Virus record (IMG/VR): IMGVR_UViG_3300023296_001674
From: a virus
Strand: one strand, 5' to 3'
DNA length: 64,000 nt
Made by a program: the position numbers and the translations under genes. The stretch's first letter is position 1. Every line of letters begins with the position of its first letter. This document shows positions 8,634 to 56,756 of this stretch, piece by piece. Below the pieces are notes generated by a model. The model saw nothing but the letters and a program-made list of their open reading frames with translations, had not been told where the DNA came from and did not search any database.

Positions 8634-8709
8634 GTCGTGGTGGCGAAATTGGTAACGCGATGGCTTGCAAAGATATTTATTGGGTGTTCGAGTCACCCCC
8701 ACGACTCCA
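8634..8709 (+). tRNA. tRNA-Cys (GCA), CCA encoded
   Basis: 7-bp acceptor GTCGTGG/CCACGAC; D arm with GG; anticodon loop TTGCAAA (U33, GCA, A37); T arm GGGTG-TTCGAGT-CACCC; discriminator U73 as in bacterial tRNA-Cys; 76 nt. Confidence 0.8.
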
Positions 8710-8728: not shown

Positions 8729-9553
8729 ATGAGTAACGTTATTGGTGGGCAACAACGGGTTAGATTAATATTTGATAAACGTGCGTCAAATGTTCTATTT
8801 GCGAAAGGTCAAAAACGATTATTCAGTGAACCAAATGGCACTAATCTTATGTTGACTCCTATTATGGGCGGTGGCATCGAAAAAGCAGGTCGCCGTGGTA
8901 GTAATAAAAACGGTAAAGTCAATATGGGTGATGAGATATTTCACGATAAAAAAACTGATTGTGCAGAAACTGTTTTATATTATGGAACAAAAGATGCAAT
9001 GAATTACTATCCTGTTCGGGGACAAGCGCAAATCTATCGATCTGGTTATCAATATTATATTGATGAAGTCGATAAATCAAAATATGCGGAATTTGGAAAA
9101 GTAACCATTGATTATATTGACGCGTTCGATGAGGATGATATTGAAAAATTAAGTTTCGACTTCAATACACCCGCATCGAATAAATATTTTTCTGATATTT
9201 TAAGAAATCGCGCAAATGGCGTAGTTGAACCGGGTCGTATGGCATTATTTTTATATAACGGCAAACCAGCAATTAATTTTTCACCAACTGGTAATGCCAT
9301 GGCGTTTGCCAAGGTATGGGCAAAAGGACCAGGTACGGTAAAGGGTGATTTCCATAAAGATGTTGTTAGAAATTTAAAACTTATCCCTGGATCGAGATAT
9401 AAATTCATCGTTGATGCTTATGATGCTTATGATGCTGATATTGTGTATTTGGAATATTTGTCGGAAGTTACTCATTTTGCACAAGTTGAGAAGTATGATT
9501 TTCCAGTTGTGACTGCATCCATTGTTCGTAAAAAAGGCGATTCTTGGGAGTAA
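8729..9553 (+). CDS. hypothetical protein
   Basis: ATG at 8729 after AAAGGAG; the track ORF from 8660 would read through the tRNA and is rejected. Confidence 0.45.
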   Translation: MSNVIGGQQRVRLIFDKRASNVLFAKGQKRLFSEPNGTNLMLTPIMGGGIEKAGRRGSNKNGKVNMGDEIFHDKKTDCAETVLYYGTKDAMNYYPVRGQAQIYRSGYQYYIDEVDKSKYAEFGKVTIDYIDAFDEDDIEKLSFDFNTPASNKYFSDILRNRANGVVEPGRMALFLYNGKPAINFSPTGNAMAFAKVWAKGPGTVKGDFHKDVVRNLKLIPGSRYKFIVDAYDAYDADIVYLEYLSEVTHFAQVEKYDFPVVTASIVRKKGDSWE

Positions 9554-9561
9554 TAGAGTTT

Positions 9562-9990
9562 TTATGCTTGTAGTAAGTGTTTTTCTTGCATAAATTCAAT
9601 AAATTTCATATCGGTTTTTTTAACATGTTCTTCGACGACTAATGCGAACGATGTTAAGACTTCAATGTGTGATAAAGGGTCATTTGGGTCATTTGCGACA
9701 CTTAATAGCATATCAGTCATAATTTTCATGTATTTAGCATGTTCAATTATGTGTTCATTAGCATATGGATATTTTTGTTTTTTCATGTATATATTTTCAT
9801 CATGAAAGTGTATAAGCATAAAATCTATGAGATATAGTGCTTGTTCTTTGATTGTCGCATGATCTTTATCGTCGGCGAGACATTCCACTAGAATATTATA
9901 TCTGTTAAATATTTCTTTGTGTGCATCATCGGTTGATTTATCGAAGCACGTTAGAGTGTCGTCCCATTTAATCATTTGATAGTTTTCCAT
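9562..9990 (-). CDS. hemerythrin-like metal-binding protein (tentative)
   Basis: H..E / HF..E / H...H spacing (LIHFHDENIYM, HIIEHAKYM) resembling the hemerythrin HHE cation-binding domain. Confidence 0.3.
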   Translation of the reverse strand: MENYQMIKWDDTLTCFDKSTDDAHKEIFNRYNILVECLADDKDHATIKEQALYLIDFMLIHFHDENIYMKKQKYPYANEHIIEHAKYMKIMTDMLLSVANDPNDPLSHIEVLTSFALVVEEHVKKTDMKFIEFMQEKHLLQA

Positions 9991-10063: not shown

Positions 10064-10306
10064 ATGGGATTCCCAATAGTAGCAGCGTTTGGACTTGGAA
10101 TGGTAGGCGCAGTAGGCGCAAAAGTTGGAACACAGCATGTTTATCCATGGTTGGTTGAAAATGCTAGCAAAGGCAAAGAAACATTGAATGATTGGTTAGA
10201 TTATACACTCGCCAAGGTGGAAACAAAGTTTGATTTCGAACATGCTGAGTTAAAAGGCGACATTGAAGAAAAAAATATCGAAAGAAATATGAACATCATC
10301 AAATAA
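10064..10306 (+). CDS. small membrane protein
   Basis: N-terminal hydrophobic Gly-rich helix MGFPIVAAFGLGMVGAVGAKVG; 80 aa. Confidence 0.4.
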   Translation: MGFPIVAAFGLGMVGAVGAKVGTQHVYPWLVENASKGKETLNDWLDYTLAKVETKFDFEHAELKGDIEEKNIERNMNIIK

Positions 10307-10451
10307 ATGTTGACTAAATGTTGACTATATGCAATATTGTGATAATATAAGTAAATATTACAAACATTGGAGTAAAGCGCATGTCTATAAAAAATTTAAA
10401 AGAAGGTAAATGTGAATTCCGTTAGGTAACTTAACTTAATGGAGAAAACAC

Positions 10452-12816: not shown

Positions 12817-13359
12817 ATGAAATTTTTTCAATGGCTAGATAATAAAGAAGCTGAAAAAATGCCGGAACGAGATATTGATGACATAAAACCGATATCAAGT
12901 AAAAAATCAGAGTTAGATAAAAAGATTTTTGAAGTAGAAAATGGGGTAATTGATATTACTGCATTGGATAATGATGAAATCATAGAAAAGAAATTTGTTC
13001 ATGCTGCGACAGGTAAAAAATATAAAACTGAACGTGCGCTAAAAGCTGGAATAACACGATATAATAAGAAACAGAATGTTTCACCTAGCTCGATAAATCT
13101 TGCAGGTAGAAACACACCAGAAGCACGAGATAAAGCAAAAAAAATTATTAAAAAAATGAATGCTGCTGAGAATCTTACATTGATAAAAACGGGTTTAAAA
13201 TACGATAAACCCGACGATAGTGTAAATCAAGTTAAAACAGATAAAGAATTAAAAATATTTGTCGATGCAGAAACAGGCAAAACGTATAAAACAGCACCTG
13301 CTTTAAAAGCAGGTATAACTAGACGATTAAAAAAACAAAAACAAGGCGATAAAATATGA
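12817..13359 (+). CDS. hypothetical protein with internal duplicated basic motif
   Basis: two copies of K(K/T)YKT..ALKAGITR..KKQ; start taken at the ATG with AAGGA SD. Confidence 0.4.
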   Translation: MKFFQWLDNKEAEKMPERDIDDIKPISSKKSELDKKIFEVENGVIDITALDNDEIIEKKFVHAATGKKYKTERALKAGITRYNKKQNVSPSSINLAGRNTPEARDKAKKIIKKMNAAENLTLIKTGLKYDKPDDSVNQVKTDKELKIFVDAETGKTYKTAPALKAGITRRLKKQKQGDKI

Positions 13360-13598
13360 GTAATAGACACGGAAAATGTGAAATCGGTAAAGGATTATCA
13401 GTAGCTGTACGCGGCGATGAAATCGAAAAAGCGATGAAAAAATTCAAAAAAATGATTATCAATGAGGGATTTTTAAAAGAACTAAAAGCCCGTCAAGAAT
13501 ATGAAAAACCAAGTGATAAAAGACGTCTTGCTAAAAAAGAAGCAGTGCGTAGACAGCAAAAAGCGATAGCGTTACGTATTAAACACGACGGTTATTGA
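13356..13598 (+). CDS. rpsU: ribosomal protein bS21
   Basis: 80 aa; VAVRGDEIEKAMKKFKK...EYEKPSDKRRLAKKEAVRRQQK aligns with E. coli S21 (RRFKRSCEK...[23 protein letters not shown]). Confidence 0.8.
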   Translation: MSNRHGKCEIGKGLSVAVRGDEIEKAMKKFKKMIINEGFLKELKARQEYEKPSDKRRLAKKEAVRRQQKAIALRIKHDGY

Positions 13599-16779: not shown

Positions 16780-17754
16780 ATGTCCGAAAGAACAAAAATG
16801 GATTATTCTATATCGTTTAAAATATTAGTATCTTTTATGTTATTGCTTTGGTCGACGTTGATGTATGTATCATATGTAAATCAACCAGAGCCAAAAGTAG
16901 TATACAAAACACCAGTTAAAACACACGCGGTTGTAGAAATTGAAATCGCAGATATTAAACCACTCAATGTTATATCATCAATCAAATCCGAAGATGTAGT
17001 GAATAAATTCAATTCTTTGAGATATGATTTAAATGATTATATTGTTCCTAGAGTCATTGTGGCAACATTGCCTACTGATTTGAACAAATTGAGTATTCCA
17101 GAAAAAAAAGAATTATTTGTAAAAATAGTGCTACCACTTATTTTACATGAAAATGAATCAATCAACCACGAACGCAATCTTGCGATTTTTAATATAAATC
17201 GAGATACCGAAGGTTCGCGATTGATTATGGCGTATTTGTATAAAAAATATCGTATATCTACAAATTCTGCCACGAACCCTATTATAAAGACTGATGAAGA
17301 ATTGCTGACTAAAATTATGCCTATACCTGTATCATTGGTATTGGCGCAAACAGCAATTGAATCTGGTTGGGGAACGTCGTATTTCGCAAGGCATGGAAAT
17401 GCACTATTTGGGCAACACGCCTATAAAGGTCAAAAATCATTGAAGCCAAGAAACATAGTAGCGCCTCGAGTAGCAGCGTTTAAAACGTTGGGAGTTTCTG
17501 TTAGTGCGTATATGAGAAATCTTAACACGCATTTGGCATACAGTGATTTTCGAAAAAAACGAATGAATTTGTCAAATTTTAAAGGGGTTATTTTAGCAGA
17601 ACATTTAGATTTATATTCGGAGCGTGGTGCTGCGTATATTAAAGATGTTAAACAAATGATAAAATATAACAAATTTGACAGATTTGAACGACATGTATTA
17701 GAGGATGATACATATCGTGCTAAAAAATCCCTTGACATGATATCCGTTCCATAG
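16780..17754 (+). CDS. membrane-anchored mannosyl-glycoprotein endo-beta-N-acetylglucosaminidase (GH73, Bax/FlgJ-like)
   Basis: N-terminal TM helix; LAQTAIESGWGTSYFARHGNALFGQHA matches the GH73 glucosaminidase catalytic region. Confidence 0.6.
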   Translation: MSERTKMDYSISFKILVSFMLLLWSTLMYVSYVNQPEPKVVYKTPVKTHAVVEIEIADIKPLNVISSIKSEDVVNKFNSLRYDLNDYIVPRVIVATLPTDLNKLSIPEKKELFVKIVLPLILHENESINHERNLAIFNINRDTEGSRLIMAYLYKKYRISTNSATNPIIKTDEELLTKIMPIPVSLVLAQTAIESGWGTSYFARHGNALFGQHAYKGQKSLKPRNIVAPRVAAFKTLGVSVSAYMRNLNTHLAYSDFRKKRMNLSNFKGVILAEHLDLYSERGAAYIKDVKQMIKYNKFDRFERHVLEDDTYRAKKSLDMISVP

Positions 17755-17808
17755 TATAACTAACAGCATGAATGAATTTATTTTATTAACAATGTAGGAG
17801 ACTGACCA

Positions 17809-18962
17809 ATGAATGACACTGTAACAGTAGAAGTAGCAACTGTTGAAGGCAAAGATATTAAAGCCGAAATGGATTTAAGCCTTTCCGAAAGTAAAGGAGC
17901 ACTTGCGGTTGCTTCTGAAAACACTTCCCCCGCAGATCAAAAGCGCGTTAAAGAATTGATATTGGTAGCACCGATTCAATTATCAACTTCGGCGTTGAAG
18001 CGCAGGGTGGTTTAAGTAAACAATCTGATGCGATGCTTAAAGGAGTTCGCAATAAAGATACTGGACCTGCTGGTGAAGTTATGAACGGTCTTATGGTTCA
18101 AATTCGTGGTTTGGGTCTTAGTGATCTCGATCCTGGTGAAAAACGAGGATTTTTCGGCAAAATGTTAGGTAAACTTACACCTGTTCAAAAATTCCTTCAA
18201 TCATATGAAAGCGTTGAAAGTCAAGTTGACGCCATGGTTGCGAAATTGACGCAAGAAAAAAACACACTACAGCGCGATGTTATTATGCTTGATGCAATGT
18301 ATAATGAAGCATTGGTATTTTTTGATGATTTGGCTTTTTATATTGAAGCCGGTGAATTGAAACTTGCTGATGTTAAAAACGTTGATATTCCAGCATTGGC
18401 GGATAAAGCACAGCAATCAGATAATATGCTTGACGCACAAGCACTTCGTGATATTAACGAACGCACACTCGATCTTGAACGTAAAATTCAAGACCTTATG
18501 CTTACACGCCAAGCAACAATGCAAATGCTTCCGCAATTACGCATGATTCAAGATGTTGATAAAGGTCTTGTAACAAAGATTCAATCTTCTATTCTTGTTA
18601 CCATTCCACTTTGGAAAGGCCAAATTGCTATGGCTATCACACTTTGGAGACAGGCTGGTGCAATCAAAACACAAAAAGCAGTTTCCGATGCCACCAATGA
18701 TATGTTGCTACAAAATTCTGCATTGTTGAAGCAGAACAGTGGTGACGCTCGATGCGAAATGGAACGTGGCGTTCTTGACATGGCAACATTGAAGCAGGTT
18801 AATGATGATCTTATCGCTACCATCGTGGAAGCCGGTCAGATTGCTGAAGAAGGCAAACGAGCGCGTATTGCTTCAAGGGTTGAAATGGATAAGTGTGAAA
18901 CTGAACTTAAAGCTGCTTTGAAAAATTCAGGTGCTAATGCCCTGAACGCAATCGCAGCCTAA
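17809..18962 (+). pseudogene. TelA-family toxic anion resistance protein, interrupted by a frameshift near 17958
   Basis: ORF 18033..18962 carries TelA signatures (IPLWKGQ, LLKQNSGDARCEMERGVLDMATLK); the N-terminal motif SIINFGVEAQGGLSKQSDAMLKGVRNKD lies in frame 0 upstream of 18033, while its leader (17809..18015) is in frame 1. Confidence 0.55.
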
Positions 18963-18992
18963 TTATTGAAAAATAGGAAAGGAGACTATATT

Positions 18993-20719
18993 ATGAATAA
19001 TCGACTTAAGATGAGTATCTACGCCGCAGCATTGGTATTAACCAGTGCTGTGTCGGCGCAGGCGGCTAGCAATTATGTTGGCATGGATTCTGTGAACAAC
19101 GTTGTCACAGAAGGCGTTCGTGATTGCCGTGGTGGTGAGGGTAATAATATTCCCATTATCACGTGGGGTGGTGATATGATTACCATTCATGCAAACGGTG
19201 ATGCGCTTGTAACCAAAGCAGGTAGTGTGTTTGACAAAGAAGGTCTTGCACTTACCTTGAAACGTGAAGACGTATTCACCAAACAGGTTGCCGGATATCT
19301 TCGTTGTGATACGCCATATATTCGTGGCACACAAGGTCAGTTAAATCTTGCTGCGGCGGTTACTGAAAACGATCCACGCACAAAAATGGTTACTATCTTC
19401 CAGCACACATGGTCGAATGGCGGTGATGCGTTGGTTGTTAAAGATGGCATCAAATCATTGGCGGATTTGAAAGGCAAAACTATCGCGTTGCAAGCATATG
19501 GACCACATATTAGTTATTTGTTTAAAATTCTTTCTGATGCAGGACTTAAACCAACCGATGTTAAATTGAAATTCACCAAAGATTTAGTTGGACTCGACGA
19601 GGATACAACGCCGGGTGTTGCGTTACTTGAAGATAAAAGCATTGATGCGGCGATGGTTATTATTCCTGATGCATTAACACTTACCTCTGGTGGAACAGTA
19701 GGAACTGAAGCCGAAGGTGCTGTAGAAGGGGCAACTATTCTTCTTACTACAAAATCAGCAAGTCGTGTTATTTCTGATGTATACGCAGTTCGTCAAGATT
19801 ATTTTGACGCTCATAAAGCAGAAGTTCAATCTTTTGTTCATGGGTTGATGGGTTGATGGTTGCAGAAGAAAATTTAGTTGCTGCCGCACGTGGTAAAACC
19901 GCCGCGTTTAAGAGTACTGTTGCTGCTACAGCAACCATTCTTCTTGGTGCCCCTACCGCGATTGGTGATGCAGGCGACCTATGGATTGATGCTGAAACCA
20001 CAGGTATCAACGGGAATGTGAAGTTTTTCACAAATAATAATTTTTCACGCAACTTTACGGCTATTACTGCCGAAATTCAACAATCATATGTGGATTTAGG
20101 GCTTCTACCAAAAGCAATGGTTTTGGCTGACGCTGGTTGGGACTACAGTGTATTGGCGATTGACTTGAAAACTGCTGGTAAGATTGAAGCACCCAGGTTT
20201 GATACTAAAAAACTTACTGCGGCTGTAACGGCAAAGGCTGCTACTGGTGATCTTGACAAAGGCGCATTGTTTACCTTCGAAATCAATTTTAAGCCAAACG
20301 TTAAGGAATTTCCAGTAGCGTTATACATGGACGCATTTAAGAAGGTGATTGATCTATCAAACACTTATTCTGGTGCAGTGATTACGGTTGAAGGACATTC
20401 CGATCCTTATGGTTATCAGAAAAAGCAGGAAAAAGGTGTAGGCGAAGGAATTCTTTCTAAAATCAAGCAATCTGGACGCACATTGAGTATTAAACGTGCT
20501 GGTGCGGTTCGTGATGCGATTATTGCCCTCGCCGAACAAGATGGTATTACGATTGACAAAAGTCAGTTTGTTGCCATCGGACTTGGTATCTCTAGCCCAA
20601 AGAATGCAATTATGCCTAAATCCATAGCGGAATGGACTACAATTACTGCGCAAAATCGTCGAGTTGTGTTTAAATTGATTAATATCGAAGCAGAATCTTC
20701 TGAATTCGAAGCACTTTAA
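18993..20719 (+). pseudogene. secreted substrate-binding-fold + OmpA-like domain protein, split by an 8-bp tandem duplication
   Basis: signal peptide MNNRLKMSIYAAALVLTSAVSAQA; NMT1/SsuA-like fold; C-terminal OmpA-like VEGHSDPYGYQ...LSIKRAGAVRDAI; GGGTTGAT is duplicated at 19842-19857, and removing one copy fuses ORFs 18966..19856 and 19853..20719 in frame. Confidence 0.55.
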
Positions 20720-20734
20720 GGGGGGATTAATAAT

Positions 20735-21523
20735 ATGAAAATATATAACAAACTCTTTATTTCATCTATCCTTGTAGCCAGCGTTCTTTTAGTTGGCTGT
20801 GAGGAAAACGCCGCACCTCTTGCCCCAAAAGCGGCAGTTGCTACAACTCAAACTTCGGATAATACACCACAGGCGGAACAAGCGCCTTGGGTTTGGCCGG
20901 GAACATCAAAAGGTGCTATTGCGTTAGCATCAGATTTGACAGCAAATAACTATATGGTAGTATATGATGGTTCTGGTAGCATGGGTGACCCATCATGTGA
21001 TAAAAATAGCCAAACATCTAAGCATGCAGAAGGCAAAATTGCTCTTAAATCATTTATCAATGCGATACCCGATGAATCTAATATTGGTTTTTACGCATTT
21101 GATAATAATGGAAAAGGTGTACGAACACAACTTAATACAGGCAACAAATCAAAAATCGTTGCTGAGATTGATAGTGTTAGTCCTGGTGATGGAACTCCGT
21201 TAAAAAGTGCGGTTAGAACAGGTTATGATGCATTGACTTTACAAGGTCAAAAACAACTCGGTTATGGAAGATATGTGTTAGTTATTGTGACTGATGGTGT
21301 TGCAAGTAGCGGTGAAAGTCCAACCAATATTGTTAATGACATCATTGACGATACACCAGTTGAAATACATACTGTTGGTTTTTGTTTGGGTGATAAACAT
21401 ACACTTAATCAACCGGGACGAACATTTTATGCTTCTGCGACAAGTTCCGAGGAAGTGTTGAAATCTCTGGAAGATGTTCTTTCAGAATCTTCGGATGTTG
21501 ATGATAACGACTTCAGTAACTAA
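20735..21523 (+). CDS. von Willebrand factor A (VWA) domain lipoprotein
   Basis: lipobox LLVGC; MIDAS motif VYDGSGSMG and downstream VTDG. Confidence 0.6.
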   Translation: MKIYNKLFISSILVASVLLVGCEENAAPLAPKAAVATTQTSDNTPQAEQAPWVWPGTSKGAIALASDLTANNYMVVYDGSGSMGDPSCDKNSQTSKHAEGKIALKSFINAIPDESNIGFYAFDNNGKGVRTQLNTGNKSKIVAEIDSVSPGDGTPLKSAVRTGYDALTLQGQKQLGYGRYVLVIVTDGVASSGESPTNIVNDIIDDTPVEIHTVGFCLGDKHTLNQPGRTFYASATSSEEVLKSLEDVLSESSDVDDNDFSN

Positions 21524-21526
21524 CAC

Positions 21527-21554
21527 TTGACATGTTGGGTGGTCATGTTAATAT
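21527..21554 (+). promoter_or_regulatory. sigma70-type promoter overlapping an imperfect inverted repeat
   Basis: TTGACA-16 nt-TAATAT; GTTGGGTGGTCAT / ATGATCACCCAA arms span the spacer and -10. Confidence 0.45.
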
Positions 21555-21588
21555 ATGATCACCCAATATTATTTTATAAGGAGTTATT

Positions 21589-21939
21589 ATGGAAGAAAAT
21601 ACGTATACTGTAAAACAATCACCAAATGGATCGACGCATTGGTATGATGAAGATGGAGCATTGCATTGTATCGGTGCACCTGCTATTATTACACTCAGCA
21701 AAGGTTTAATGATTAGTGAAGAATGGTATAAGCATGGTAGATTGCATAATTTAAACGGACATGCAAGAATTGGCTACAAACAAAACGCCGATGGTGATAT
21801 GGATGTGACGTGGTCGCAACATTGGATTGATGGTGAACAATTGTCGGAAAAAGAATTCACCGAACAGACCACTGTTAAACAAATGACCATGGATGAAATA
21901 AACACTAAGTTGGGTTGTATTGTTGATATTGTTGAATAA
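21589..21939 (+). CDS. MORN-repeat-like protein
   Basis: EWYKHGRLHNLNGHARIG and HWYDEDGALHCIGAPAII resemble the MORN_2 unit (WYxNGxLHRxDGPA). Confidence 0.4.
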   Translation: MEENTYTVKQSPNGSTHWYDEDGALHCIGAPAIITLSKGLMISEEWYKHGRLHNLNGHARIGYKQNADGDMDVTWSQHWIDGEQLSEKEFTEQTTVKQMTMDEINTKLGCIVDIVE

Positions 21940-21966
21940 TATTTTTACTAAAGAAAGGATTATAAA

Positions 21967-23520
21967 ATGAAACCATTACATATCGTAATTGCTTTAATTT
22001 TAACACTTATTGGTGTTGGAGGAATGGTCGGGTATAAAGTGTTTGACGATGCTTCGTTGACTGCTTCCACGGATTCCGCTAATGTTCGCGAAACTGTAAA
22101 TATTGGTGTTGATAGTTGGGCTGGTTATACAGTGTTATGTTCAACTGAAACGAGACGATTAGCGCTTGTTGATGGCATTCTTGTAAAGTGTCACGATGAT
22201 AAAGCCAACTATACAGATCGTATGGCTAAACTAGCCAGTGAAGAATTGCAAATGGCTGCTGCTGCGGTTGATGGTTATGTTCTTGCAGGTGATGCAGTTA
22301 AATATCCGGGCAGTGTTACATTTGTTATCGATGAATCACAAGGTGGTGATGTTATTATCGCCAACGCAAGTGTAGCAAAAAATATCAATGATTTGAAAAA
22401 TCGCAGTGGTGTTAAAATTGCATTTACCCCTGATTCACCAAGTCAGACGTTACTTACTAAATGGAGTAGCGACTTTGATGTTAAAATTAATGATCCCAAG
22501 GCGATAACATTGGTTCACGCTAATGGTGCAGCAGACGCTGCTAAAAAACTTCAAAATGGTGAAGTAGATGTTGCAGTTGTTTGGGAACCACACGCATCCA
22601 AATTGTTAAGTAATGCAAATTTTGTTAAACTTATTGGCACAGAAAGCACTAAAAACCTTATCGTTGATGTGTTACTCACCAATCAGCGTTATGCAAAAAG
22701 CAATCCAGATGTAATGAAGACGGTTGTTAAATCATACTTTTTAGCATTGGAGCATTATAAAACAAACACCAAAGAATTTGATGATGAGATTATTCGTTAT
22801 GCTGGTGCCAGCCGTGATCAAGTTGACGCAATTAAAGCGGGTATCAATTGGGTTGATTTACCACACAATGCCGCAGATTGGTTGGGTATTAGTCAAACTG
22901 GCGGTAAAGCGCAACGACAGTTGTATGACACCTTCAACTCTGCGGTTCGTTTATATGTCAATAGTGGTGATTTTACTACAAGCCCTATTCCTGGTGATGA
23001 TCCGTTTCGTTTGATTGATTCAAGTGCATTCAATGACGTATATACATTGGGAATGACTGGAAAACTTGGTGTTATGTTTCAACCTATCACAGTTATCAAA
23101 GACGTTAGTGTTACACGCCCCTTTAAGAAACTTTCACCGGGTCGTTGGGCTAAACTTAAAGATATTGGATCATTGAAATTACAAGCTATTACGTTCAAGC
23201 GTGGAACATACGAACTTGAATCAACAGGTCAATCCGCATTCAAATCATTGGTTGAAATGCTTGAAACATATCCAAATTATCGCATTAAAGTTGTGGGTCA
23301 TTCGGGCAAGCGCGGAGATCAAGCGGCTAATATGGTTCTTTCTAAAAAACGTTCTATATCTGCGGCAAAATATTTGATGGACAAATATGGCATTGACAAA
23401 AATCGAATTTACGCGTATGGTGTAGGCAATGGACAGCCACCTCGCCGTGAAACCGGTGAAACGAAACGTGCATATAATGCAAGGTGGCCTCGTGTTGAAC
23501 TTATTTTAGTGGAAGGATAA
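21967..23520 (+). CDS. membrane-anchored substrate-binding-fold (NMT1/SsuA-like) protein with C-terminal OmpA-like domain
   Basis: N-terminal TM helix; GEVDVAVVWEPHASKLL binding-protein fold; C-terminal VVGHSGKRGDQAANMVLSKKRSISAAKYL (OmpA/MotB peptidoglycan-binding motif); intact paralog of the split gene at 18993. Confidence 0.6.
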   Translation: MKPLHIVIALILTLIGVGGMVGYKVFDDASLTASTDSANVRETVNIGVDSWAGYTVLCSTETRRLALVDGILVKCHDDKANYTDRMAKLASEELQMAAAAVDGYVLAGDAVKYPGSVTFVIDESQGGDVIIANASVAKNINDLKNRSGVKIAFTPDSPSQTLLTKWSSDFDVKINDPKAITLVHANGAADAAKKLQNGEVDVAVVWEPHASKLLSNANFVKLIGTESTKNLIVDVLLTNQRYAKSNPDVMKTVVKSYFLALEHYKTNTKEFDDEIIRYAGASRDQVDAIKAGINWVDLPHNAADWLGISQTGGKAQRQLYDTFNSAVRLYVNSGDFTTSPIPGDDPFRLIDSSAFNDVYTLGMTGKLGVMFQPITVIKDVSVTRPFKKLSPGRWAKLKDIGSLKLQAITFKRGTYELESTGQSAFKSLVEMLETYPNYRIKVVGHSGKRGDQAANMVLSKKRSISAAKYLMDKYGIDKNRIYAYGVGNGQPPRRETGETKRAYNARWPRVELILVEG

Positions 23521-23524
23521 TAAC

Positions 23525-23710
23525 GTGGGCATTTGGAGAGGTTGCACACAAAAAGATTTGGTCAAGCAGTTTATCATCGATAAAGGCACCCTCGACGCTA
23601 TATATATTGCTAAACGGTTATGGCCTTCCCATCCACAACCATCCGAATGGATTGAGTTTACCGAAGATGATATTAATCAGTTACAACAGTATGAAATGGA
23701 GAATAAATGA
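23525..23710 (+). CDS. hypothetical small protein
   Basis: GTG start; 61 aa. Confidence 0.3.
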   Translation: MGIWRGCTQKDLVKQFIIDKGTLDAIYIAKRLWPSHPQPSEWIEFTEDDINQLQQYEMENK

Positions 23711-24537
23711 TGGACGCACAATTTATTGATTTATCACAGATGACACCGGAAGCGGTTAAAAGCGCAGTGTTTAAAAATACCGCTACTAACCCATTAACGA
23801 TTTTTCCAATTCTTGCAAGTTTGCCGATATTGGGTGTTTGGGCGATTTTTGATGCAGGTTTGTTATTTGTTGCGTTAAGTGTTTTATCGGCTGCGGGTGG
23901 TGGTAGCATGTTTGCTATAAATTACTTTGGTCGTTATGCAGTGTTCTCTAACAAATATTTCATTCAACTTCGAAAAGATAATGAAGCGAAAGCAAAACAG
24001 AAACTCGTCGAAGTTGAAGAATTTCTCGATGAACGCGAATTTGAGCAAGGTGCAAGACAGGTAACTAAATTGCAAGCATCAATGACTGCTTTTGAAAAGG
24101 TTCTTGATCGTAAATTTGAACCGCATGAATTTGCACGTGCCCGATATCATGGCGTAGCCGAACAAGTTCAATTGAATGCACTTGGCAACCTAGAACAAAT
24201 TGTGACTATGTTGACGGCGGTTGACGCAATTGATCCAGAATATATTCAAAGACGTATTGACGAACTTGGCGAAATTGCAAATGATAACGATGGTTTGAAT
24301 GATTCGCAGTGGGAAGAAAAAGAAGCACTTGAAGCACGATGGGAACTTCGTGAAAATCAATTCAAGGGTATTGACGAACTGCTTTCACAGAACGAAAAAG
24401 CAATGACTGAACTTGGTAAAATATCAACCAATATTGCCTCTTCAAATGTTGCGGGTAATAGCGCAGAAGAAGATTTAGAATCAGCAATCGATTCACTTAA
24501 CAATCTTGGAAAAGACGCCCAAAAGCATTGGGCTTAA
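23707..24537 (+). CDS. membrane protein with C-terminal coiled coil
   Basis: two N-terminal hydrophobic helices followed by a long acidic helical region; ATGA overlap with the upstream gene. Confidence 0.4.
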   Translation: MMDAQFIDLSQMTPEAVKSAVFKNTATNPLTIFPILASLPILGVWAIFDAGLLFVALSVLSAAGGGSMFAINYFGRYAVFSNKYFIQLRKDNEAKAKQKLVEVEEFLDEREFEQGARQVTKLQASMTAFEKVLDRKFEPHEFARARYHGVAEQVQLNALGNLEQIVTMLTAVDAIDPEYIQRRIDELGEIANDNDGLNDSQWEEKEALEARWELRENQFKGIDELLSQNEKAMTELGKISTNIASSNVAGNSAEEDLESAIDSLNNLGKDAQKHWA

Positions 24538-24562
24538 CTGAAACTATAAAGGAGAACTTATT

Positions 24563-25603
24563 ATGCGTAAATTATGTACTTATATGCTTGCTTTCACTGC
24601 ATTTGCGATAATCGCTATTGTCGTTGCTGAAAGTGTGAACGCAGCAGAAACTGTTAAAGTTGGGTGGTCGCGATATACAGGATTTGAACCATTGGGCCTT
24701 ATGCAAAATACCGGAATTATGGAAAAATGGAATAAAAAGATGGGCACGGATGTCCAACTTGAATTTGTTGGCAATTATGTTGATTCGGTAACATTGTATT
24801 CATCCGGTCAATATCAAGGTGTTGCTGTAACCAACATGGACGTTTTAGCCATCGCTGGTGTAGGTGGACGACATTCTACCGCAGTTATTGTTGGTGATTA
24901 TTCGAATGGTAACGACGGGTTGGTTCTTAAAGGGTTTTCATCGCTTGCGAAAGTTAAATCAAATATCAATTTGGTTGAATATTCGGTATCGCATTATTTA
25001 CTTGCACGATGTGCAGAAAAAATGGGTGTTGATATAAATTCATTCACTCTAGAAAACACGATGGATTCAGACATTCCGGCAGTAGTTGAAGCGAATGATG
25101 CGATTGCGGTTGTTGCGTGGAATCCAATGCTTACCAGTATCAAAGAATTGAACGACGCTAATATCGTTTGCACCAGTTCAGAATTTCCTGGCGAGATCAT
25201 CGACATGGTTGTTGTAAGCGACGACGTTGATGAAAATTCTCGTAAAGCATTGACGGGTGCATGGTATGAAGCAATGGCGTTGATTAAATCTGGCGATGTT
25301 GATACATTATCATTTTTGGCTGAACAATCAGGTAGCACATTGGAAGATTTTATGTCACAATTGAAAACTACACATTTGTTTTATACTGCCAATGATGCAG
25401 TTTCGTTTATTAAAGATGCGGAATTAAAAGCAACGATGACTAAGGTTGTTAAGTTTTCGTTTGAGGCTGGTGTATATGATGGTGTTGATGATCCAAATGA
25501 AATTGGTGTGAAGTTTGCTGATGGTTCAGTGATGGGTGATGAAGCAAATGTAATGCTTACGTTTGATCCAAGTGTTACACAGTGGGTATCTACTGCAAAA
25601 TAA
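24563..25603 (+). CDS. ABC transporter periplasmic substrate-binding protein (NMT1/SsuA/TauA family)
   Basis: signal peptide; VKVGWSRYTGFEPL and IAVVAWNPM motifs typical of sulfonate/nitrate/taurine binding proteins; AAGGAGAAC SD. Confidence 0.65.
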   Translation: MRKLCTYMLAFTAFAIIAIVVAESVNAAETVKVGWSRYTGFEPLGLMQNTGIMEKWNKKMGTDVQLEFVGNYVDSVTLYSSGQYQGVAVTNMDVLAIAGVGGRHSTAVIVGDYSNGNDGLVLKGFSSLAKVKSNINLVEYSVSHYLLARCAEKMGVDINSFTLENTMDSDIPAVVEANDAIAVVAWNPMLTSIKELNDANIVCTSSEFPGEIIDMVVVSDDVDENSRKALTGAWYEAMALIKSGDVDTLSFLAEQSGSTLEDFMSQLKTTHLFYTANDAVSFIKDAELKATMTKVVKFSFEAGVYDGVDDPNEIGVKFADGSVMGDEANVMLTFDPSVTQWVSTAK

Positions 25604-25631
25604 CACTTGACACAATATGTATATATGATAA

Positions 25632-25664
25632 AATGGTGTAATAGAAATATTACACCATTTTTTT
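25632..25664 (+). terminator. intrinsic terminator
   Basis: perfect 12-bp stem AATGGTGTAATA-gaaa-TATTACACCATT followed by TTTTTTT. Confidence 0.6.
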
Positions 25665-25677
25665 ACGAGGAGTGCAA

Positions 25678-25788
25678 ATGATTTATAAAAATAAGTTATT
25701 CAGAAATTCAAATTTTAGACTAACGGTAGAAATTGCATTTACTATCACAGTTTTTTTATTGGTGGCGTTTTTTGGCGCATATTATTAA
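25678..25788 (+). CDS. possible 36-aa hydrophobic peptide
   Basis: ACGAGGAGTGCAA ATG; MIYKNKLFRNSNFRLTVEIAFTITVFLLVAFFGAYY; below the size cutoff of the ORF track. Confidence 0.3.
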   Translation: MIYKNKLFRNSNFRLTVEIAFTITVFLLVAFFGAYY

Positions 25789-25812
25789 TATAATAAAATA
25801 AGGAATAATTAA

Positions 25813-26646
25813 ATGAAAGAATCTAAATTTTTTGGACTACATGCAAGACCTGGAAAAAAGTTAGGAATATTTCTAATGTTTATTCCATTCATTTTTGCGT
25901 TGTTTGTATATATGGGTGGATCGCAATATCGCCAAATGGAAAACGAAAAAGACAAAGTTATGCCTACTATTGCAAAAATGGTAGATTCCACGATCAAATA
26001 CACAGTTACCGAAGATCGAAAAGGAAATTATCGACTATTAAATGACGCTGTTAATAGCGTGCGTCGAATCGTAATAGGTGTTACATTAGCAGCATTGGTT
26101 GGTTTGATGTTGGGTATGAATACGGCGTTATTCCCCGGTATGCGAGAACTTTTAAATCCATTTATTACATTCTTTTCAAATATTCCAGCATTGGCATTAA
26201 TGCCGATCTTACTTATTACGATGGGGACAGGCGAGGTTGCAAAAATTGGACTTATATTCATTGGCACCGTGTTTATGATTACACGTGATGTTTTTCGAGC
26301 AACAAACGAACTCCCCAAAGAACAAATCACTAAAGCACTTACATTAGGCGCAACCGAATTTGAAGTTGTGTATAAAATCGTGCTGCCACAAATCATTCCA
26401 TCGCTTTTAAGCACTGTGCGACTTAGTTTAGGAGCAGCATGGTTATTTCTTATTGCTGGTGAAGCAATCGCATCTACTGATGGCTTAGGATATCGTATAT
26501 ACCTTGTGAAGCGGTATATGGCTATGGATGTTATTATTCCTTATGTATTGGCTATTACCGGATTGGCGTTTAGTATGGATCGTATATTAAAACGATTTAT
26601 CGGTTGGAAATATCCTTGGTATGTAGCAACAAGCGGAGGTAAGTGA
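25813..26646 (+). CDS. ABC transporter permease (SsuC/TauC/NrtB-like)
   Basis: 6 predicted TM helices; EAA-loop region IAGEAIASTDGLGYRIY. Confidence 0.75.
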   Translation: MKESKFFGLHARPGKKLGIFLMFIPFIFALFVYMGGSQYRQMENEKDKVMPTIAKMVDSTIKYTVTEDRKGNYRLLNDAVNSVRRIVIGVTLAALVGLMLGMNTALFPGMRELLNPFITFFSNIPALALMPILLITMGTGEVAKIGLIFIGTVFMITRDVFRATNELPKEQITKALTLGATEFEVVYKIVLPQIIPSLLSTVRLSLGAAWLFLIAGEAIASTDGLGYRIYLVKRYMAMDVIIPYVLAITGLAFSMDRILKRFIGWKYPWYVATSGGK

Positions 26647-26647
26647 T

Positions 26648-27076
26648 ATGGTTAAATGGACAGATGGCGACGACGATGATAAATTGCGTTCAGCCCCTTT
26701 AGCATCACAAGCAGAAGAAATACAAACAACTTTAAACAGTTTGATTGAGGAAGGACCAGAAATTGTGAATGGTGTTAGATTGCAGCTTAATGATATGCCA
26801 GCAATGATATACGATCCTCAATCGTCTGCAATGGCATTAGTTGAAATGCGACGACTTGATAAAGGTGAATCAAAATTGGTAAAAGTCACCTTAATGATGT
26901 TGGTGCCAATAGATGTATCATTAAATGTTGTTGAAGATAATGTTTCGTGCGCAATAGATAATATCATAGATCAAGATCAGTTTATGGATGATCCGGTAGA
27001 TGATACATATCCAATTATTGAAAATGTTAAATTGCTTACAACAAAAAGTGAAGAAATAACGTTGGAAGGGGAATAA
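26648..27076 (+). CDS. hypothetical acidic protein inserted within the ABC operon
   Basis: 142 aa, Asp/Glu-rich; ATGA overlaps with both neighbours. Confidence 0.4.
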   Translation: MVKWTDGDDDDKLRSAPLASQAEEIQTTLNSLIEEGPEIVNGVRLQLNDMPAMIYDPQSSAMALVEMRRLDKGESKLVKVTLMMLVPIDVSLNVVEDNVSCAIDNIIDQDQFMDDPVDDTYPIIENVKLLTTKSEEITLEGE

Positions 27077-27078
27077 TA

Positions 27079-28019
27079 ATGATAGCCAAAGCAAACAAAC
27101 TTAAGAACTCAAACCTTTTACATATTCAAGATGTTTATAAGGAATATGACGATAATGTCATTTTGGACAACATTGATTTATCCGTCAGTAAAGGTGCATT
27201 CGTGACCGTAGTGGCCCATCTGGATGTGGTAAATCTACACTGTTGCGATTAATTCTTGGTCAAGAAACACCCACCAGCGGCAATGTATCATTAGATGGCA
27301 AAACCGTTGGTCGTGCTGATGTTAATCGTGGCATCGTATATCAAAAATATTCACTATTTCCAAATCTTACCGTTTTGGACAACGTTCTTCTTGGTAAGAA
27401 ACTTGGAGATAATAAAGATGAATGGTCGCAAAATAAACGCATATTGACCGAAGAAGCAATGCATTTTTTATCAAGTGTTAAACTTGGAGAACATGCGAAC
27501 AAATATCCACACCAACTTTCTGGCGGTATGCAACAGCGGGTCGCAGTTATGCAAGCACTTATCATGAAACCAAATATTTTGATGATGGACGAACCTTTTG
27601 GTGCACTTGATCCAGGCACACGTGAAGATATTCAAATTTTTCTTTTAGAGCAATGGAAAGAACATGGTATGACTATTTTCTTTGTGACACACGACTTGGA
27701 AGAAGCTGTATTTCTTGGAACTCGCATTATCACATTGTCGCAATATTATACAGATGATCGTCATGATGATTTGCCCGGTATGCTTTCGTATCAACGCAAT
27801 TGGCACGGTGCCAAAGTTGTATCTGATCGAAGCGTCGAACATATGAATGACGACATCAAAGGTTCGGTGACAGAAAAACAAACAAAAGAATTCTCTGAAA
27901 TCATTGAAGATATTCGCGATGAAGGCTTCAATCCTGAAAATATTAGACATGTGTCAGAATTTAATCTTACACATCGCAATAGTTTTCAAATATTAACATC
28001 AGAGGAGCAAGTAAAATAA
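27079..28019 (+). pseudogene. ABC transporter ATP-binding protein with a -1 frameshift in the Walker A region
   Basis: ORF from 27079 encodes ...SKGAFVTVV and then goes out of frame; the next frame reads SGPSGCGKSTLLRLILG (Walker A), followed by LSGGMQQRVAVMQAL (signature) and ILMMDEPFGALD (Walker B); a G appears to be missing in GTGG-CCCATCTGG near 27213. Confidence 0.6.
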
Positions 28020-28297: not shown

Positions 28298-28638
28298 AAT
28301 CATATTATATAATATTAGAAATTTGGCGACATTTTTTAGTAGTATGTTCAATCCTGTTCGGTGTTATTGTTATTATATCAGGAGTAATAGGTTCTGAATA
28401 TATCAATGTCGTTTATTTCGCTCGTGGTGATTGGGCAATGATTTTCCTGATTACTGGCGCACTTGTTATTTCATATTGTATATTTTACTATATTTTACTA
28501 CCAATAGAAGGAATATTTTTAATATTAGGCGTTGCGTTTGTGGCTATGATACACAAATATAATAATGGCGTAGTCAGTATCGAAAATTTCGTTAATGATT
28601 ACATGAATTATGTAATAAGAAAAATGGAGAGAAATTAA
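28294..28638 (+). CDS. integral membrane protein
   Basis: 3 predicted hydrophobic helices; 114 aa. Confidence 0.4.
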   Translation: MKSYYIILEIWRHFLVVCSILFGVIVIISGVIGSEYINVVYFARGDWAMIFLITGALVISYCIFYYILLPIEGIFLILGVAFVAMIHKYNNGVVSIENFVNDYMNYVIRKMERN

Positions 28639-39222: not shown

Positions 39223-39289
39223 TCTATTGACATCTCCGCACATTTATGTTATATTGGAATCATTATTAACACAAAGAAAGGATAATATC

Positions 39290-39727
39290 ATGTTGAATAA
39301 ACTGTCCGCTGCAACCATCCAAGCACGTAAAGATAAAAACGGAGACGCTAAATTATTGGTTACGTTTCTCTCCGAAGTTCGAATGCGTGCCAAAGATGAT
39401 GGCAATCGTGAAGTGACTGACACTGATATCGTTAAAGTTGCGCAAAAATTCATGAAATCAGCAAAAGAAACAGTAGGCATTCTTCAAAAAGACGATAGCC
39501 GACCAGATGCCCTTACAGCCGCACTACGTGAAATCGAAGTGCTTGATGCGTATATTCCTACACTTATGGATGAAGACGCTACACGGGCTGCTGTAGCCGC
39601 TGCAATCGAAGCAACTGGCGCTACCGATATGTCTGATATGGGTAGAATTATGGGTGAATTGAAAAAATCACACGGCGTAACCATTAATATGGGTCTTGCT
39701 TCCGGTATTTTGAAAACGTCATTCTAA
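39290..39727 (+). CDS. GatB/YqeY-domain protein
   Basis: MLNKLSAATIQARKDKNGDAKLLVTFLSEVRMRAKD...DIVKVAQKFMKSAKE matches the YqeY/GatB C-terminal domain; ATG at 39290 after AAGGA. Confidence 0.55.
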   Translation: MLNKLSAATIQARKDKNGDAKLLVTFLSEVRMRAKDDGNREVTDTDIVKVAQKFMKSAKETVGILQKDDSRPDALTAALREIEVLDAYIPTLMDEDATRAAVAAAIEATGATDMSDMGRIMGELKKSHGVTINMGLASGILKTSF

Positions 39728-40584: not shown

Positions 40585-40665
40585 GCTGGTAACGCATAGT
40601 GGGGGTGCAGCGTGCTCATAACGCGCCGACGAAAGTCCGGGTTGGTTCGATTCCAACTATCAGTA
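40585..40665 (+). tRNA. atypical tRNA-like gene: anticodon CAU, long variable arm, no encoded CCA
   Basis: acceptor GCTGGTA/TATCAGT (7 bp, 2 G-U); D arm GCAT-agtgggg-GTGC; anticodon arm GCGTG-CTCATAA-CGCGC (U33, CAU, A37, A38); 14-nt variable arm with GAAA tetraloop; T arm GTTGG-TTCGATT-CCAAC; A8 rather than U8. Confidence 0.45.
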
Positions 40666-40685
40666 CATATAAGAAATGGTTGGCT

Positions 40686-47262: not shown

Positions 47263-47321
47263 TCCTTGACAATATCTGATTATCATATATAATAATCAAA
47301 TAATCAACGAAAGGTATTATT

Positions 47322-52105: not shown

Positions 52106-52170
52106 AGGACACCAATACAAGTATTGGCAGATAAAAAATTCGACTTGGAATATGATTGAAGGGATATAAA

Positions 52171-56686: not shown

Positions 56687-56756
56687 TATTTGACATAATA
56701 CCCCCCCCACTGTGATATACTTATATAAGTTTAAAAAATATAGGAGAGATATTAGT

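What the first reader, a model, noticed from the sequence alone, without database searches (positions are those of the whole stretch)
19842..19857. Clean 8-bp tandem duplication (GGGTTGAT x2) splits a secreted binding-fold/OmpA-domain gene
Deleting one copy of GGGTTGAT fuses ORF 18966-19856 (...FVHGLM) in frame with ORF 19853-20719 (VAEENLVAAARGK...). This rebuilds a ~575-aa protein with the same architecture as the intact paralog at 21967-23520: N-terminal anchor/signal, NMT1/SsuA-like fold, C-terminal OmpA-like domain. An 8-bp direct duplication is not a typical sequencing artefact, so this is a recent slipped-strand inactivation or a reversible phase-variation-like switch.
Basis: seen in the sequence. 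Interest (0 to 1): 0.5.

Follow-up and report, generated by a model that had tools for sequence, protein, structure and literature searches.

The report
Frameshifted envelope gene in huge phage
A real 8-base tandem duplication has broken a cell-wall-anchored binding-protein gene in a roughly 570-kb phage-like genome, and two neighbouring genes of the same conserved cassette are also frameshifted, so this looks like ordinary recent gene decay rather than a genetic switch.

Summary
GGGTTGAT occurs twice in tandem at 19842-19857. Removing one copy fuses ORF 18993-19856 to ORF 19856-20719 and gives a 572-aa protein. That protein aligns end to end, with no gap at the junction, to a widespread 570-585-aa family with a TauA/SsuA-type binding fold and an OmpA-like C-terminus.

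Five relatives carry the single-copy sequence. The two-copy allele is in every assembly on record, from JGI, ENA and Logan.

The break lies inside a helix of the binding fold, and the downstream half has no signal peptide or ribosome-binding site. The lesion is therefore inactivating.

The same eight-gene cassette holds two more frameshifts:
- TelA has a 13-nt gap at 17953/17954.
- The ABC ATPase has a 1-nt deletion at 27211/27212, just before Walker A.

All three genes are intact in the relatives that carry them. dN/dS is not raised in the broken genes, so the lesions are recent.

The window belongs to a huge-phage-like element. I found nothing that supports phase variation or programmed frameshifting. 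Verdict: a young slipped-strand pseudogene in a decaying accessory cassette, of low to moderate interest.

The parts
19842..19849 (+). First copy of the 8-nt unit GGGTTGAT
   Evidence: It is absent as an extra unit from the orthologs.
19850..19857 (+). Second copy of GGGTTGAT. It contains the premature stop TGA at 19854-19856 and overlaps the ATG at 19856.
19840..19862 (+). Full slippage context, ATGGGTTG ATGGGTTG ATGG TTG.
   Evidence: Period-8 run at 19840-19859. The mechanism is inferred from the sequence.
18993..19856 (+). 5' fragment of the broken SBP-OmpA gene (287 aa). It holds a Sec signal peptide (cleavage likely after AQA) and about two thirds of the TauA/SsuA-type binding fold. An alternative TTG start lies at 18966.
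19856..20719 (+). 3' fragment of the broken gene (287 aa). It holds the rest of the binding fold and the OmpA-like peptidoglycan-binding domain (GHSD...LSxxRAxxV). It has no signal peptide and no AGGAG-type ribosome-binding site.
17809..18015 (+). 5' fragment of TelA (68-aa ORF). The true TelA frame is left at 17953/17954, where the window has a 13-nt gap relative to L003.
17952..18962 (+). 3' part of TelA. The frame is open from 17952 and the first ATG is at 18033. The 309-aa ORF matches Pfam TelA positions 34-331 of 332.
   Evidence: TelA is 384 aa and intact in L003, L089, L090 and L091.
20735..21523 (+). vWA-domain protein, probably a lipoprotein (LLVGC lipobox). Intact. It sits next to the SBP-OmpA gene in 84 of 84 related loci.
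   Evidence: The lipobox is read from the sequence.
21967..23520 (+). Intact distant paralog (517 aa): N-terminal membrane anchor, SBP fold and OmpA domain. It is 24% identical to the repaired gene.
23707..24537 (+). Conserved cassette gene orf276. Intact, no known domain.
24563..25603 (+). Cassette substrate-binding protein. It resembles TIGR03427 at 331 bits, just below the 333.9-bit cut-off. Intact.
25813..26646 (+). ABC transporter permease (BPD_transp_1). Intact.
27079..27252 (+). 5' fragment of the ABC ATPase gene. A 1-nt deletion between 27211 and 27212 shifts the frame just before the Walker A motif.
27213..28019 (+). 3' part of the ABC ATPase gene. Walker A (GPSGCGKST) is encoded at 27213-27240 in this frame, but the first usable start is TTG 27243, so the 258-aa ORF lacks the P-loop.

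Best explanation
The 8-nt tandem duplication is a genuine, recent replication-slippage mutation. The nascent strand mispaired between two ATGG tetramers 8 nt apart. The result frameshifts and inactivates a gene for a secreted protein made of a TauA/SsuA-type ligand-binding fold fused to an OmpA-like peptidoglycan-binding domain.

The gene belongs to a conserved eight-gene cassette: SBP-OmpA, a vWA protein that is probably a lipoprotein, an SBP-OmpA paralog, orf276, TelA, and an ABC importer made of a binding protein, a permease and an ATPase. Many bacteria and several huge phages carry this cassette. In this roughly 570-kb phage-like genome three of the eight genes (TelA, SBP-OmpA, ABC ATPase) each carry one independent frameshift. 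The cassette is therefore being lost under relaxed selection, and the duplication is one step in that decay.

What is shown:
- The duplication exists.
- The lesion is present in all assemblies on record.
- Every relative that carries these genes has them intact.
- The break falls inside a domain.
- Two further lesions lie in the same cassette.

What is inferred:
- The slippage mechanism.
- Loss of function.
- Relaxed selection as the cause.
For: - The sequence and the frame restoration are shown.
- The repaired protein matches 1,232 homologs. The best are 69-70% identical over 99-100% of the query and 575-581 aa long. There is no gap at the junction.
- The ortholog DNA alignment shows an insertion of exactly 8 nt. 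Five relatives have a single copy.
- The exact truncated products are on all 5 contigs that carry the neighbouring gene, the longest being 570,750 bp. The Logan contig from SRR7528202 is identical to the window over 20.8 kb.
- The AlphaFold model (pLDDT 91.9) places the break at residue 286/287, in the middle of helix 275-298. The binding fold continues to about residue 385 and matches TauA and SsuA over about 330 columns.
- TelA has a 13-nt gap. The ABC ATPase has a 1-nt deletion that separates Walker A from the rest of the protein.
- The cassette is conserved: vWA is adjacent in 84 of 84 loci and the paralog in 81 of 84.
- Every 'TelA-first' relative that spans these genes has them intact: TelA (384 aa) and SBP-OmpA (571-581 aa) in L003, L089, L090 and L091, and the ATPase (309-311 aa) in L003 and L089, the two contigs that reach it.
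- dN/dS against L003 is 0.05-0.15 for all eight genes and is not higher in the broken ones. The repaired frames contain no internal stops. The lesions are therefore young.
- About 13 non-cassette genes in the window have full-length domain matches.
Against: - No reads were inspected, so heterogeneity within the population cannot be excluded.
- The assemblies may share read sets. JGI and Logan could both derive from SRR7528202.
- No close relative (more than 90% identical) with an intact allele exists to date the event. The nearest ortholog is only 74% identical.
- The downstream half keeps a 287-codon open frame and begins with a TGATG stop-start overlap, so some expression by translational coupling is possible.
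- The claim that frameshifts are concentrated in the cassette rests on a weak control. Domain coverage would have missed the TelA lesion.
Confidence: 0.75

Rival explanations
1. The duplication is a reversible, phase-variation-like switch. Slippage toggles between one and two copies and turns the envelope protein on and off in the phage or host population.
For: A perfect tandem duplication can revert by the same slippage that made it. The rest of the gene is undamaged. The window has more short perfect tandem duplications than expected: 8 loci with units of 8-12 nt against 2.3 expected.
Against: - There are only about 2.5 copies. Known contingency loci carry long tracts (established knowledge).
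- All assemblies carry the same allele, and the 90% cluster has a single member.
- Pattern scans allowing 1-4 copies found no other allele, and neither did degenerate flank scans.
- None of the 80 bacterial loci or the phage relatives shows a repeat tract at this site.
- TelA and the ABC ATPase in the same cassette are broken by lesions that are not repeats.
- The other tandem duplications in the window do not break genes.
Confidence: 0.05
2. The duplication is a sequencing or assembly artefact and the gene is really intact.
For: Three frameshifts within 10 kb could point to a poor consensus. One of them is a single-base deletion next to a short G or T run.
Against: - The exact truncated proteins recur on 5 contigs from three repositories. 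These include the Logan contig from SRR7528202, which is flagged as occurring in two samples; a second run, SRR7528804, holds the element's TyrRS gene.
- The Logan contig is identical to the window over 20,789 nt.
- An 8-nt duplication and a 13-nt deletion are not typical platform errors (established knowledge).
- The aminoacyl-tRNA synthetases, the methylase, the MVP-like gene and the RNA ligase elsewhere in the window are full length.
Confidence: 0.07
3. The split gene is still functional. Either the two halves are made separately by translational coupling at the TGATG overlap, or a -1 slip of tRNA-Gly on G GGU UGA reads through and adds G-L-M to the protein.
For: The downstream frame is the -1 frame. 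GGU followed by a stop, with GGG in the -1 register, could allow P-site slippage. Stop and start overlap as TGATG. The downstream 287 codons are still open, and dN/dS is not raised.
Against: - There is no canonical X XXY YYZ heptamer.
- There is no significant RNA structure downstream (z = -0.93).
- The break sits in the middle of a helix inside the binding fold, so the separate halves should not fold.
- The 3' half lacks a signal peptide, although its OmpA-like domain has to reach the periplasm.
- No AGGAG-type ribosome-binding site precedes 19856, whereas TelA has one.
- The TelA and ATPase frameshift sites have no slippery sequence and differ from L003 by true indels.
- The low dN/dS is averaged over a long, saturated branch (dS above 1).
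Confidence: 0.08

Closest known systems
Frameshift pseudogenes made by slipped-strand tandem duplication (Streisinger-type frameshifts between short direct repeats)
   Same: The inserted unit is a perfect copy of the adjacent 8 nt and is bounded by 4-nt microhomology (ATGG). Its length is not a multiple of three. A stop follows within 2 codons. The orthologs lack the insertion.
   Different: Nothing essential differs. The setting is unusual: an accessory cassette of a huge phage, alongside two other young frameshifts.
Simple-sequence contingency loci (phase-variable genes of Neisseria, Haemophilus and Campylobacter)
   Same: A tandem repeat inside an ORF for a surface or envelope protein sets the reading frame through its copy number.
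   Different: There are only two full copies rather than a long tract. No copy-number polymorphism was found. No repeat occurs at this site in any homolog. The neighbouring genes are inactivated by other means.
TauA/SsuA (NMT1-type, NitT/TauT family) periplasmic substrate-binding proteins
   Same: The predicted fold matches TauA (6ssy, E = 1.6e-12) and SsuA (2x26, 3ksj) over about 330 columns. Pfam NMT1 scores above its gathering threshold.
   Different: The domain is fused to a C-terminal OmpA-like domain and so is tethered to the cell wall. Sequence identity is 15-20%. The scores against TIGR01728 and the taurine SBP models are far below their cut-offs. The ligand is unknown.
OmpA-like (Pal/MotB/OmpA C-terminal) peptidoglycan-binding domains
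   Same: The motifs GHSD...LSxxRAxxVR are present. The family profile hits the Acinetobacter Omp38 C-domain 3td3 (E = 1.4e-5). The paralog scores 9e-18 on Pfam OmpA.
   Different: This copy scores below the Pfam gathering threshold (17.8 against 27.2 bits) and has a long insert between the GHSD and LSxxRA motifs.
Huge phages (over 200 kb, up to 735 kb; Al-Shayeb et al. 2020, PMC7162821)
   Same: The longest contig is 570,750 bp. The window encodes AspRS, TyrRS, a TilS-like PP-loop protein, ribosomal protein S21 and tRNAs. Its MVP-like protein has homologs in the phage collection only in the 462-kb and 735-kb uncultured phages, and its RNA ligase is closest to jumbo-phage ligases. The cassette is also present in 545-kb and 595-kb phage contigs.
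   Different: The 64-kb window contains no capsid, portal or terminase gene, so the viral nature of the element is inferred and not shown here.

Membership tests
Slipped-strand frameshift pseudogene | An insertion or deletion relative to the orthologs whose length is not a multiple of three | tested here: met
   There is an 8-nt insertion against L003. L003, L089, L090, L091 and L006 all have a single copy.
Slipped-strand frameshift pseudogene | The inserted bases are a perfect tandem copy flanked by microhomology | tested here: met
   GGGTTGAT occurs twice.
Slipped-strand frameshift pseudogene | A premature stop and a disrupted domain, so the product should not function | tested here: met
   TGA lies at 19854-19856. 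The break is in the middle of helix 275-298 inside the binding fold. The 3' half has no signal peptide. Loss of function itself is inferred.
Slipped-strand frameshift pseudogene | The lesion is present in the organism and not only in one assembly | tested here: inconclusive
   The truncated product is the same on 5 contigs from JGI, ENA and Logan. Reads were not examined, and the read sets may overlap.
Phase-variable contingency locus | A long tract of tandem repeat units, typically five or more | tested here: not met
   There are only 2.5 units.
Phase-variable contingency locus | Copy-number polymorphism between or within populations | tested here: not met
   The protein cluster has a single member. 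No allele with 1-4 copies was found in the viral or metagenome collections. Read-level variation could not be tested.
Phase-variable contingency locus | The rest of the functional unit is intact, so switching has a phenotype | tested here: not met
   TelA and the ABC ATPase of the same cassette carry independent frameshifts that are not repeat-based.
Programmed -1 ribosomal frameshift | A slippery heptamer X XXY YYZ in the zero frame | tested here: not met
   The sequence is ATG GGT TGA. The only candidate is a non-canonical G GGU slip at the stop.
Programmed -1 ribosomal frameshift | A stimulatory RNA structure downstream | tested here: not met
   The fold of 19857-19950 is -27 kcal/mol with z = -0.93.
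Programmed -1 ribosomal frameshift | The frameshift site is conserved in homologs | tested here: not met
   All homologs are single uninterrupted ORFs.
SBP(NMT1)-OmpA fusion family | A TauA/SsuA-type periplasmic binding fold | tested here: met
   Pfam NMT1 scores 36 bits against a cut-off of 20.5. Foldseek hits TauA at 1.6e-12 and SsuA.
SBP(NMT1)-OmpA fusion family | A C-terminal OmpA-like domain | tested here: inconclusive
   Pfam OmpA scores 17.8 bits, below the 27.2 cut-off. The family profile hits 3td3 at 1.4e-5. The alignment to the OmpA domain of the paralog and the GHSD/LSxxRA motifs support it.
SBP(NMT1)-OmpA fusion family | Full-length colinearity with family members and the conserved vWA neighbour | tested here: met
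   Coverage is 99-100% at 69-70% identity. vWA is adjacent in 84 of 84 loci.
Huge phage genome | Structural and packaging genes (major capsid protein, portal, terminase) | not tested
   None turned up among the ORFs of the 64-kb window that were scanned. The rest of the 570-kb contig was not available.
Huge phage genome | A genome over 200 kb with phage-type gene content and homologs in recognised huge phages | tested here: met
   The contig is 570,750 bp. It encodes S21, aminoacyl-tRNA synthetases and tRNAs. MVP-like hits occur only in LR756500, LR756501 and LR756503. The RNA ligase is closest to jumbo-phage ligases. The cassette is in the IMG/VR 545-kb contig and in LR756511.

The most novel reading that the evidence does not exclude
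The three same-direction frameshifts may not be decay. All three move the frame by +2 (equivalently -1) and all lie in one cassette. They could be a regulated or reversible state of a phage-borne envelope and transport module. For example, population-level switching by slippage, or low-level -1 recoding, could tune how much of a host-envelope-remodelling complex a huge phage makes. Independently of that, the eight-gene SBP-OmpA/vWA/TelA/ABC cassette shared by huge phages and hundreds of bacteria would be an uncharacterised envelope system.
Probability: 0.05. Interest if true: 0.6.

Novelty: new member of a known kind. Interest (0 to 1): 0.25.

Why it matters
The duplication itself is a textbook slippage frameshift and changes little. 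It has two practical consequences.

First, annotation should mark 18993-20719, 17809-18962 and 27079-28019 as three pseudogenes rather than six small genes.

Second, the lesions catch a huge phage in the act of losing a conserved eight-gene cassette of bacterial type, whose function is unknown. This suggests the cassette is dispensable for this phage. The cassette recurs in phage contigs of 545, 570 and 595 kb and in more than 80 bacterial genomes, which makes it a defined target for study.

Tried and rejected
- **Phage megablast.** A megablast of 17000-26000 against GenBank phages found no match.
- **Exact-pattern scans.** Scans allowing 1-4 repeat copies found nothing in IMG/VR or the JGI metagenomes. 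A degenerate scan for the conserved flank KAEVQSFVHG also found nothing. No second allele could be recovered.
- **Literature.** Searches for SRR7528202 and for a described TelA/vWA/OmpA cassette found nothing useful. Al-Shayeb et al. 2020 does not mention OmpA, tellurite, ABC transporters or pseudogenes.
- **Programmed frameshifting.** Rejected. There is no heptamer and no downstream structure, and the other two sites are plain indels.
- **Other tandem duplications as extra lesions.** The duplications at 28479, 10304 and 47291 were checked. Removing a copy at 28479 breaks an ORF rather than repairing one, and the other two are intergenic or at a gene end.
- **dN/dS as a test for relaxed selection.** This was uninformative beyond showing the lesions are recent, because dS is saturated at 1-3.
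- **Hallmark phage genes.** PHROGs returned only an RNA ligase among the ten large ORFs scanned.

Full report
**1. The observation**

The window reads ...TTTGTTC ATGGGTTG ATGGGTTG ATGG TTGCAGAAG.... GGGTTGAT sits at 19842-19849 and again at 19850-19857, and period-8 identity runs from 19840 to 19859. The upstream ORF ends at TGA 19854-19856. Its likely start is ATG 18993, with a possible TTG at 18966. The downstream ORF opens at TTG 19853 or ATG 19856 and ends at 20719. Deleting one unit gives an uninterrupted 572-codon frame reading ...VQSFVHGLMVAEENLV....

A perfect 8-nt tandem repeat is not improbable on its own. A second-order Markov model of the window expects about 1.6 such loci, and 2 are seen. 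The case therefore rests on homology.

**2. It is a true duplication inside one ancestral gene**

The repaired protein finds 1,232 homologs. The best are 69-70% identical over 99-100% of the query and 575-581 aa long. In a 15-sequence alignment there is no gap at the junction: HGLMVAEE against HGLLVAEE.

The closest relative at DNA level is L003, a 12.5-kb Logan contig with 74% nt identity and the same gene order. It has an intact 581-aa gene, and the pairwise alignment shows exactly one 8-nt gap opposite the window's extra unit. Four further relatives (L089, L090, L091 and the 545-kb IMG/VR phage contig L006) also have a single copy. None of the 80 bacterial loci fetched is split.

**3. It is not an assembly artefact, as far as this can be judged without reads**

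The exact 287-aa truncated product, the 287-aa downstream product and both TelA pieces are on record from JGI/IMG, ENA and Logan. All 5 contigs that carry the neighbouring vWA gene also carry the truncated product, and the longest is 570,750 bp. The Logan contig from run SRR7528202 is identical to the window over 20,789 nt and is flagged as occurring in two samples. A second run, SRR7528804, holds the same element's TyrRS gene. An 8-nt duplication is not a known platform error (established knowledge). These assemblies may share reads, so they exclude an assembler error but not population heterogeneity.

**4. What the gene encodes and why the split is inactivating**

Pfam finds NMT1 above its threshold and OmpA below it. 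An AlphaFold model built on 120 homologs has pLDDT 91.9 and pTM 0.89. Foldseek matches TauA (6ssy, E = 1.6e-12) and SsuA over about 330 columns. The family profile also hits the OmpA-like domain of Omp38, 3td3.

The protein starts with a Sec-type signal peptide (...SAVSAQA/AS) and ends with the GHSD...LSxxRAxxVR motifs. This reads as a periplasmic ligand-binding domain tethered to peptidoglycan.

The break at residue 286/287 falls in the middle of helix 275-298, while the binding fold continues to about residue 385. The 5' product therefore lacks roughly 100 residues of its fold. The 3' product begins mid-helix and has no signal peptide. It also has no AGGAG-type ribosome-binding site, unlike TelA at 17798-17802.

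**5. The decisive context: two more frameshifts in the same cassette**

The 68-aa ORF at 17809-18015 is the N-terminus of TelA. The frame changes at 17953/17954, where the window has a 13-nt gap against L003. TelA is 384 aa and intact in L003, L089, L090 and L091.

The ABC ATPase is also split, into ORFs 27079-27252 and 27243-28019. A 1-nt deletion between 27211 and 27212 puts Walker A (GPSGCGKST) out of frame, and the downstream ORF can only start after it.

The other five cassette genes are intact and match the length of their L003 counterparts.

The cassette itself is strongly conserved. Its order is SBP-OmpA, vWA, SBP-OmpA2, orf276, TelA, SBP, permease, ATPase. vWA is adjacent in 84 of 84 loci and the paralog in 81 of 84. 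Carriers include Desulfogranum japonicum, Desulfosarcina variabilis and cable bacteria.

About 13 genes outside the cassette have full-length domain matches. By my arithmetic, 3 of 8 against 0 of 13 gives a hypergeometric p of about 0.04. This control is insensitive, so the figure should be treated with caution.

**6. Age of the lesions**

Nei-Gojobori dN/dS against L003 is 0.05-0.15 for all eight genes. The broken genes score 0.127, 0.132 and 0.087, which is not elevated, and the repaired frames have no internal stops. Each gene carries one lesion. The inactivations are therefore recent relative to the saturated divergence from L003 (dS above 1).

**7. Mechanism**

If the nascent second ATGG slips back onto the first, GTTGATGG is copied again and the observed product results. 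This is inferred from the sequence and follows the classical Streisinger slippage model.

The window also has an excess of short perfect tandem duplications: 8 loci with units of 8-12 nt against 2.3 expected, reached in 0 of 200 simulations. Only this one breaks a gene.

**8. Rivals**

- *Phase variation.* There are only 2.5 units, no other allele was found, homologs have no repeat at this site, and the cassette is also broken by lesions that cannot revert by slippage.
- *Programmed -1 frameshifting.* There is no X XXY YYZ heptamer and no downstream structure (z = -0.93), and the TelA and ATPase sites are plain indels. A non-canonical G GGU UGA P-site slip cannot be formally excluded.
- *Functional split by coupling at TGATG.* This is disfavoured by the mid-helix break and the missing signal peptide.

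**9. What the window is**

The window has 36% GC and nearly all its genes are on one strand. It encodes AspRS, TyrRS, a TilS-like protein, ribosomal protein S21, YqeY, SpoU, two tRNAs, a DNA methylase, an RNA ligase and an MVP-like protein.

The MVP-like protein's only hits in the GenBank phage collection are uncultured huge phages of 462 and 735 kb. The RNA ligase is closest to ligases of jumbo phages. The cassette also occurs in a 545-kb IMG/VR contig and in the 595-kb phage LR756511.1. No bacterial species genome has an SBP-OmpA relative above about 52% identity.

The element is therefore most likely a huge phage of about 570 kb. No structural gene lies in this window, so this remains an inference.

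**10. Verdict**

The reading 'recent slipped-strand inactivation' is supported, and the reading 'reversible switch' is not. The duplication is one of three young frameshifts that are eroding a conserved accessory cassette of a huge phage. The kind of event is well known and the instance is new. Interest is low to moderate, and most of it lies in the cassette rather than in the duplication.

Noticed in passing
window 17809-28019; L003, L006, L088, L089, L090; L007-L086: A conserved eight-gene cassette of unknown function: SBP-OmpA, a vWA protein that is probably a lipoprotein, an SBP-OmpA paralog, orf276, TelA, a TIGR03427-like SBP, a permease and an ABC ATPase. It occurs in more than 80 bacterial genomes (Desulfobacterota including cable bacteria, Gammaproteobacteria, Myxococcota) and in huge-phage contigs of 545, 570 and 595 kb. 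In the phage-type version TelA has moved to the front.
   Followed up: partly
window 17953/17954: TelA is frameshifted by a 13-nt gap relative to L003. The 68-aa ORF 17809-18015 is its detached N-terminus.
   Followed up: yes
window 27211/27212: The ABC transporter ATPase is frameshifted by a 1-nt deletion immediately before the Walker A motif. The 258-aa ORF 27243-28019 lacks the P-loop.
   Followed up: yes
window 30686-33346: An 886-aa protein with major-vault-protein repeat and shoulder domains. Its only hits in the GenBank phage collection (40-42% identity over 94%) are uncultured huge phages LR756500 (462 kb) and LR756501/LR756503 (735 kb). An SPFH/Band-7 protein lies at 56712-57773 and a FecR-domain protein at 34996-36753.
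   Followed up: partly
L006 20381-20383 (IMG/VR UViG_3300037484_000435): The ABC ATPase of the same cassette in this 545-kb phage contig has an in-frame TAA after residue 227, and homology continues past it. This could be another lesion in the cassette or a recoded stop.
   Followed up: no
window 9412-9436, 9677-9695, 10103-10120, 10304-10327, 21918-21935, 28479-28500, 47291-47307: The window has more perfect short tandem duplications (units of 8-12 nt) than expected: 8 loci against 2.3 in a Markov model, reached in 0 of 200 simulations. Of the three frame-shifting units checked, the one at 28479 does not break its ORF and those at 10304 and 47291 lie at a gene end or between genes; the 9-nt units would be frame-neutral in coding sequence (the one at 21918 was not placed). 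This suggests a genome prone to replication slippage.
   Followed up: partly
window 3297-5111, 53425-54675, 52156-53103, 8634-8709, 40585-40666, about 13356-13598: Translation-related genes typical of huge phages: aspartyl-tRNA synthetase, tyrosyl-tRNA synthetase, a TilS-like PP-loop protein, tRNA-Cys, tRNA-Met and ribosomal protein S21. YqeY lies at 39227-39727 and a SpoU methylase at 58746-59378.
   Followed up: partly
window 21589-21939: A 116-aa ORF sits between the vWA gene and the paralog. It is absent from L003, had no hit in any of the 84 related loci, and matches no Pfam family.
   Followed up: no
window 21532-21569: A 17-bp-stem hairpin followed by a T-rich tail lies just after the vWA gene. 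It is a possible terminator inside the cassette.
   Followed up: no
L018, L024, L070: The cassette also lies on contigs binned as Parcubacteria, Sungiibacteriota and Saccharibacteria (CPR) MAGs. These could be mis-binned phage contigs or real transfers.
   Followed up: no
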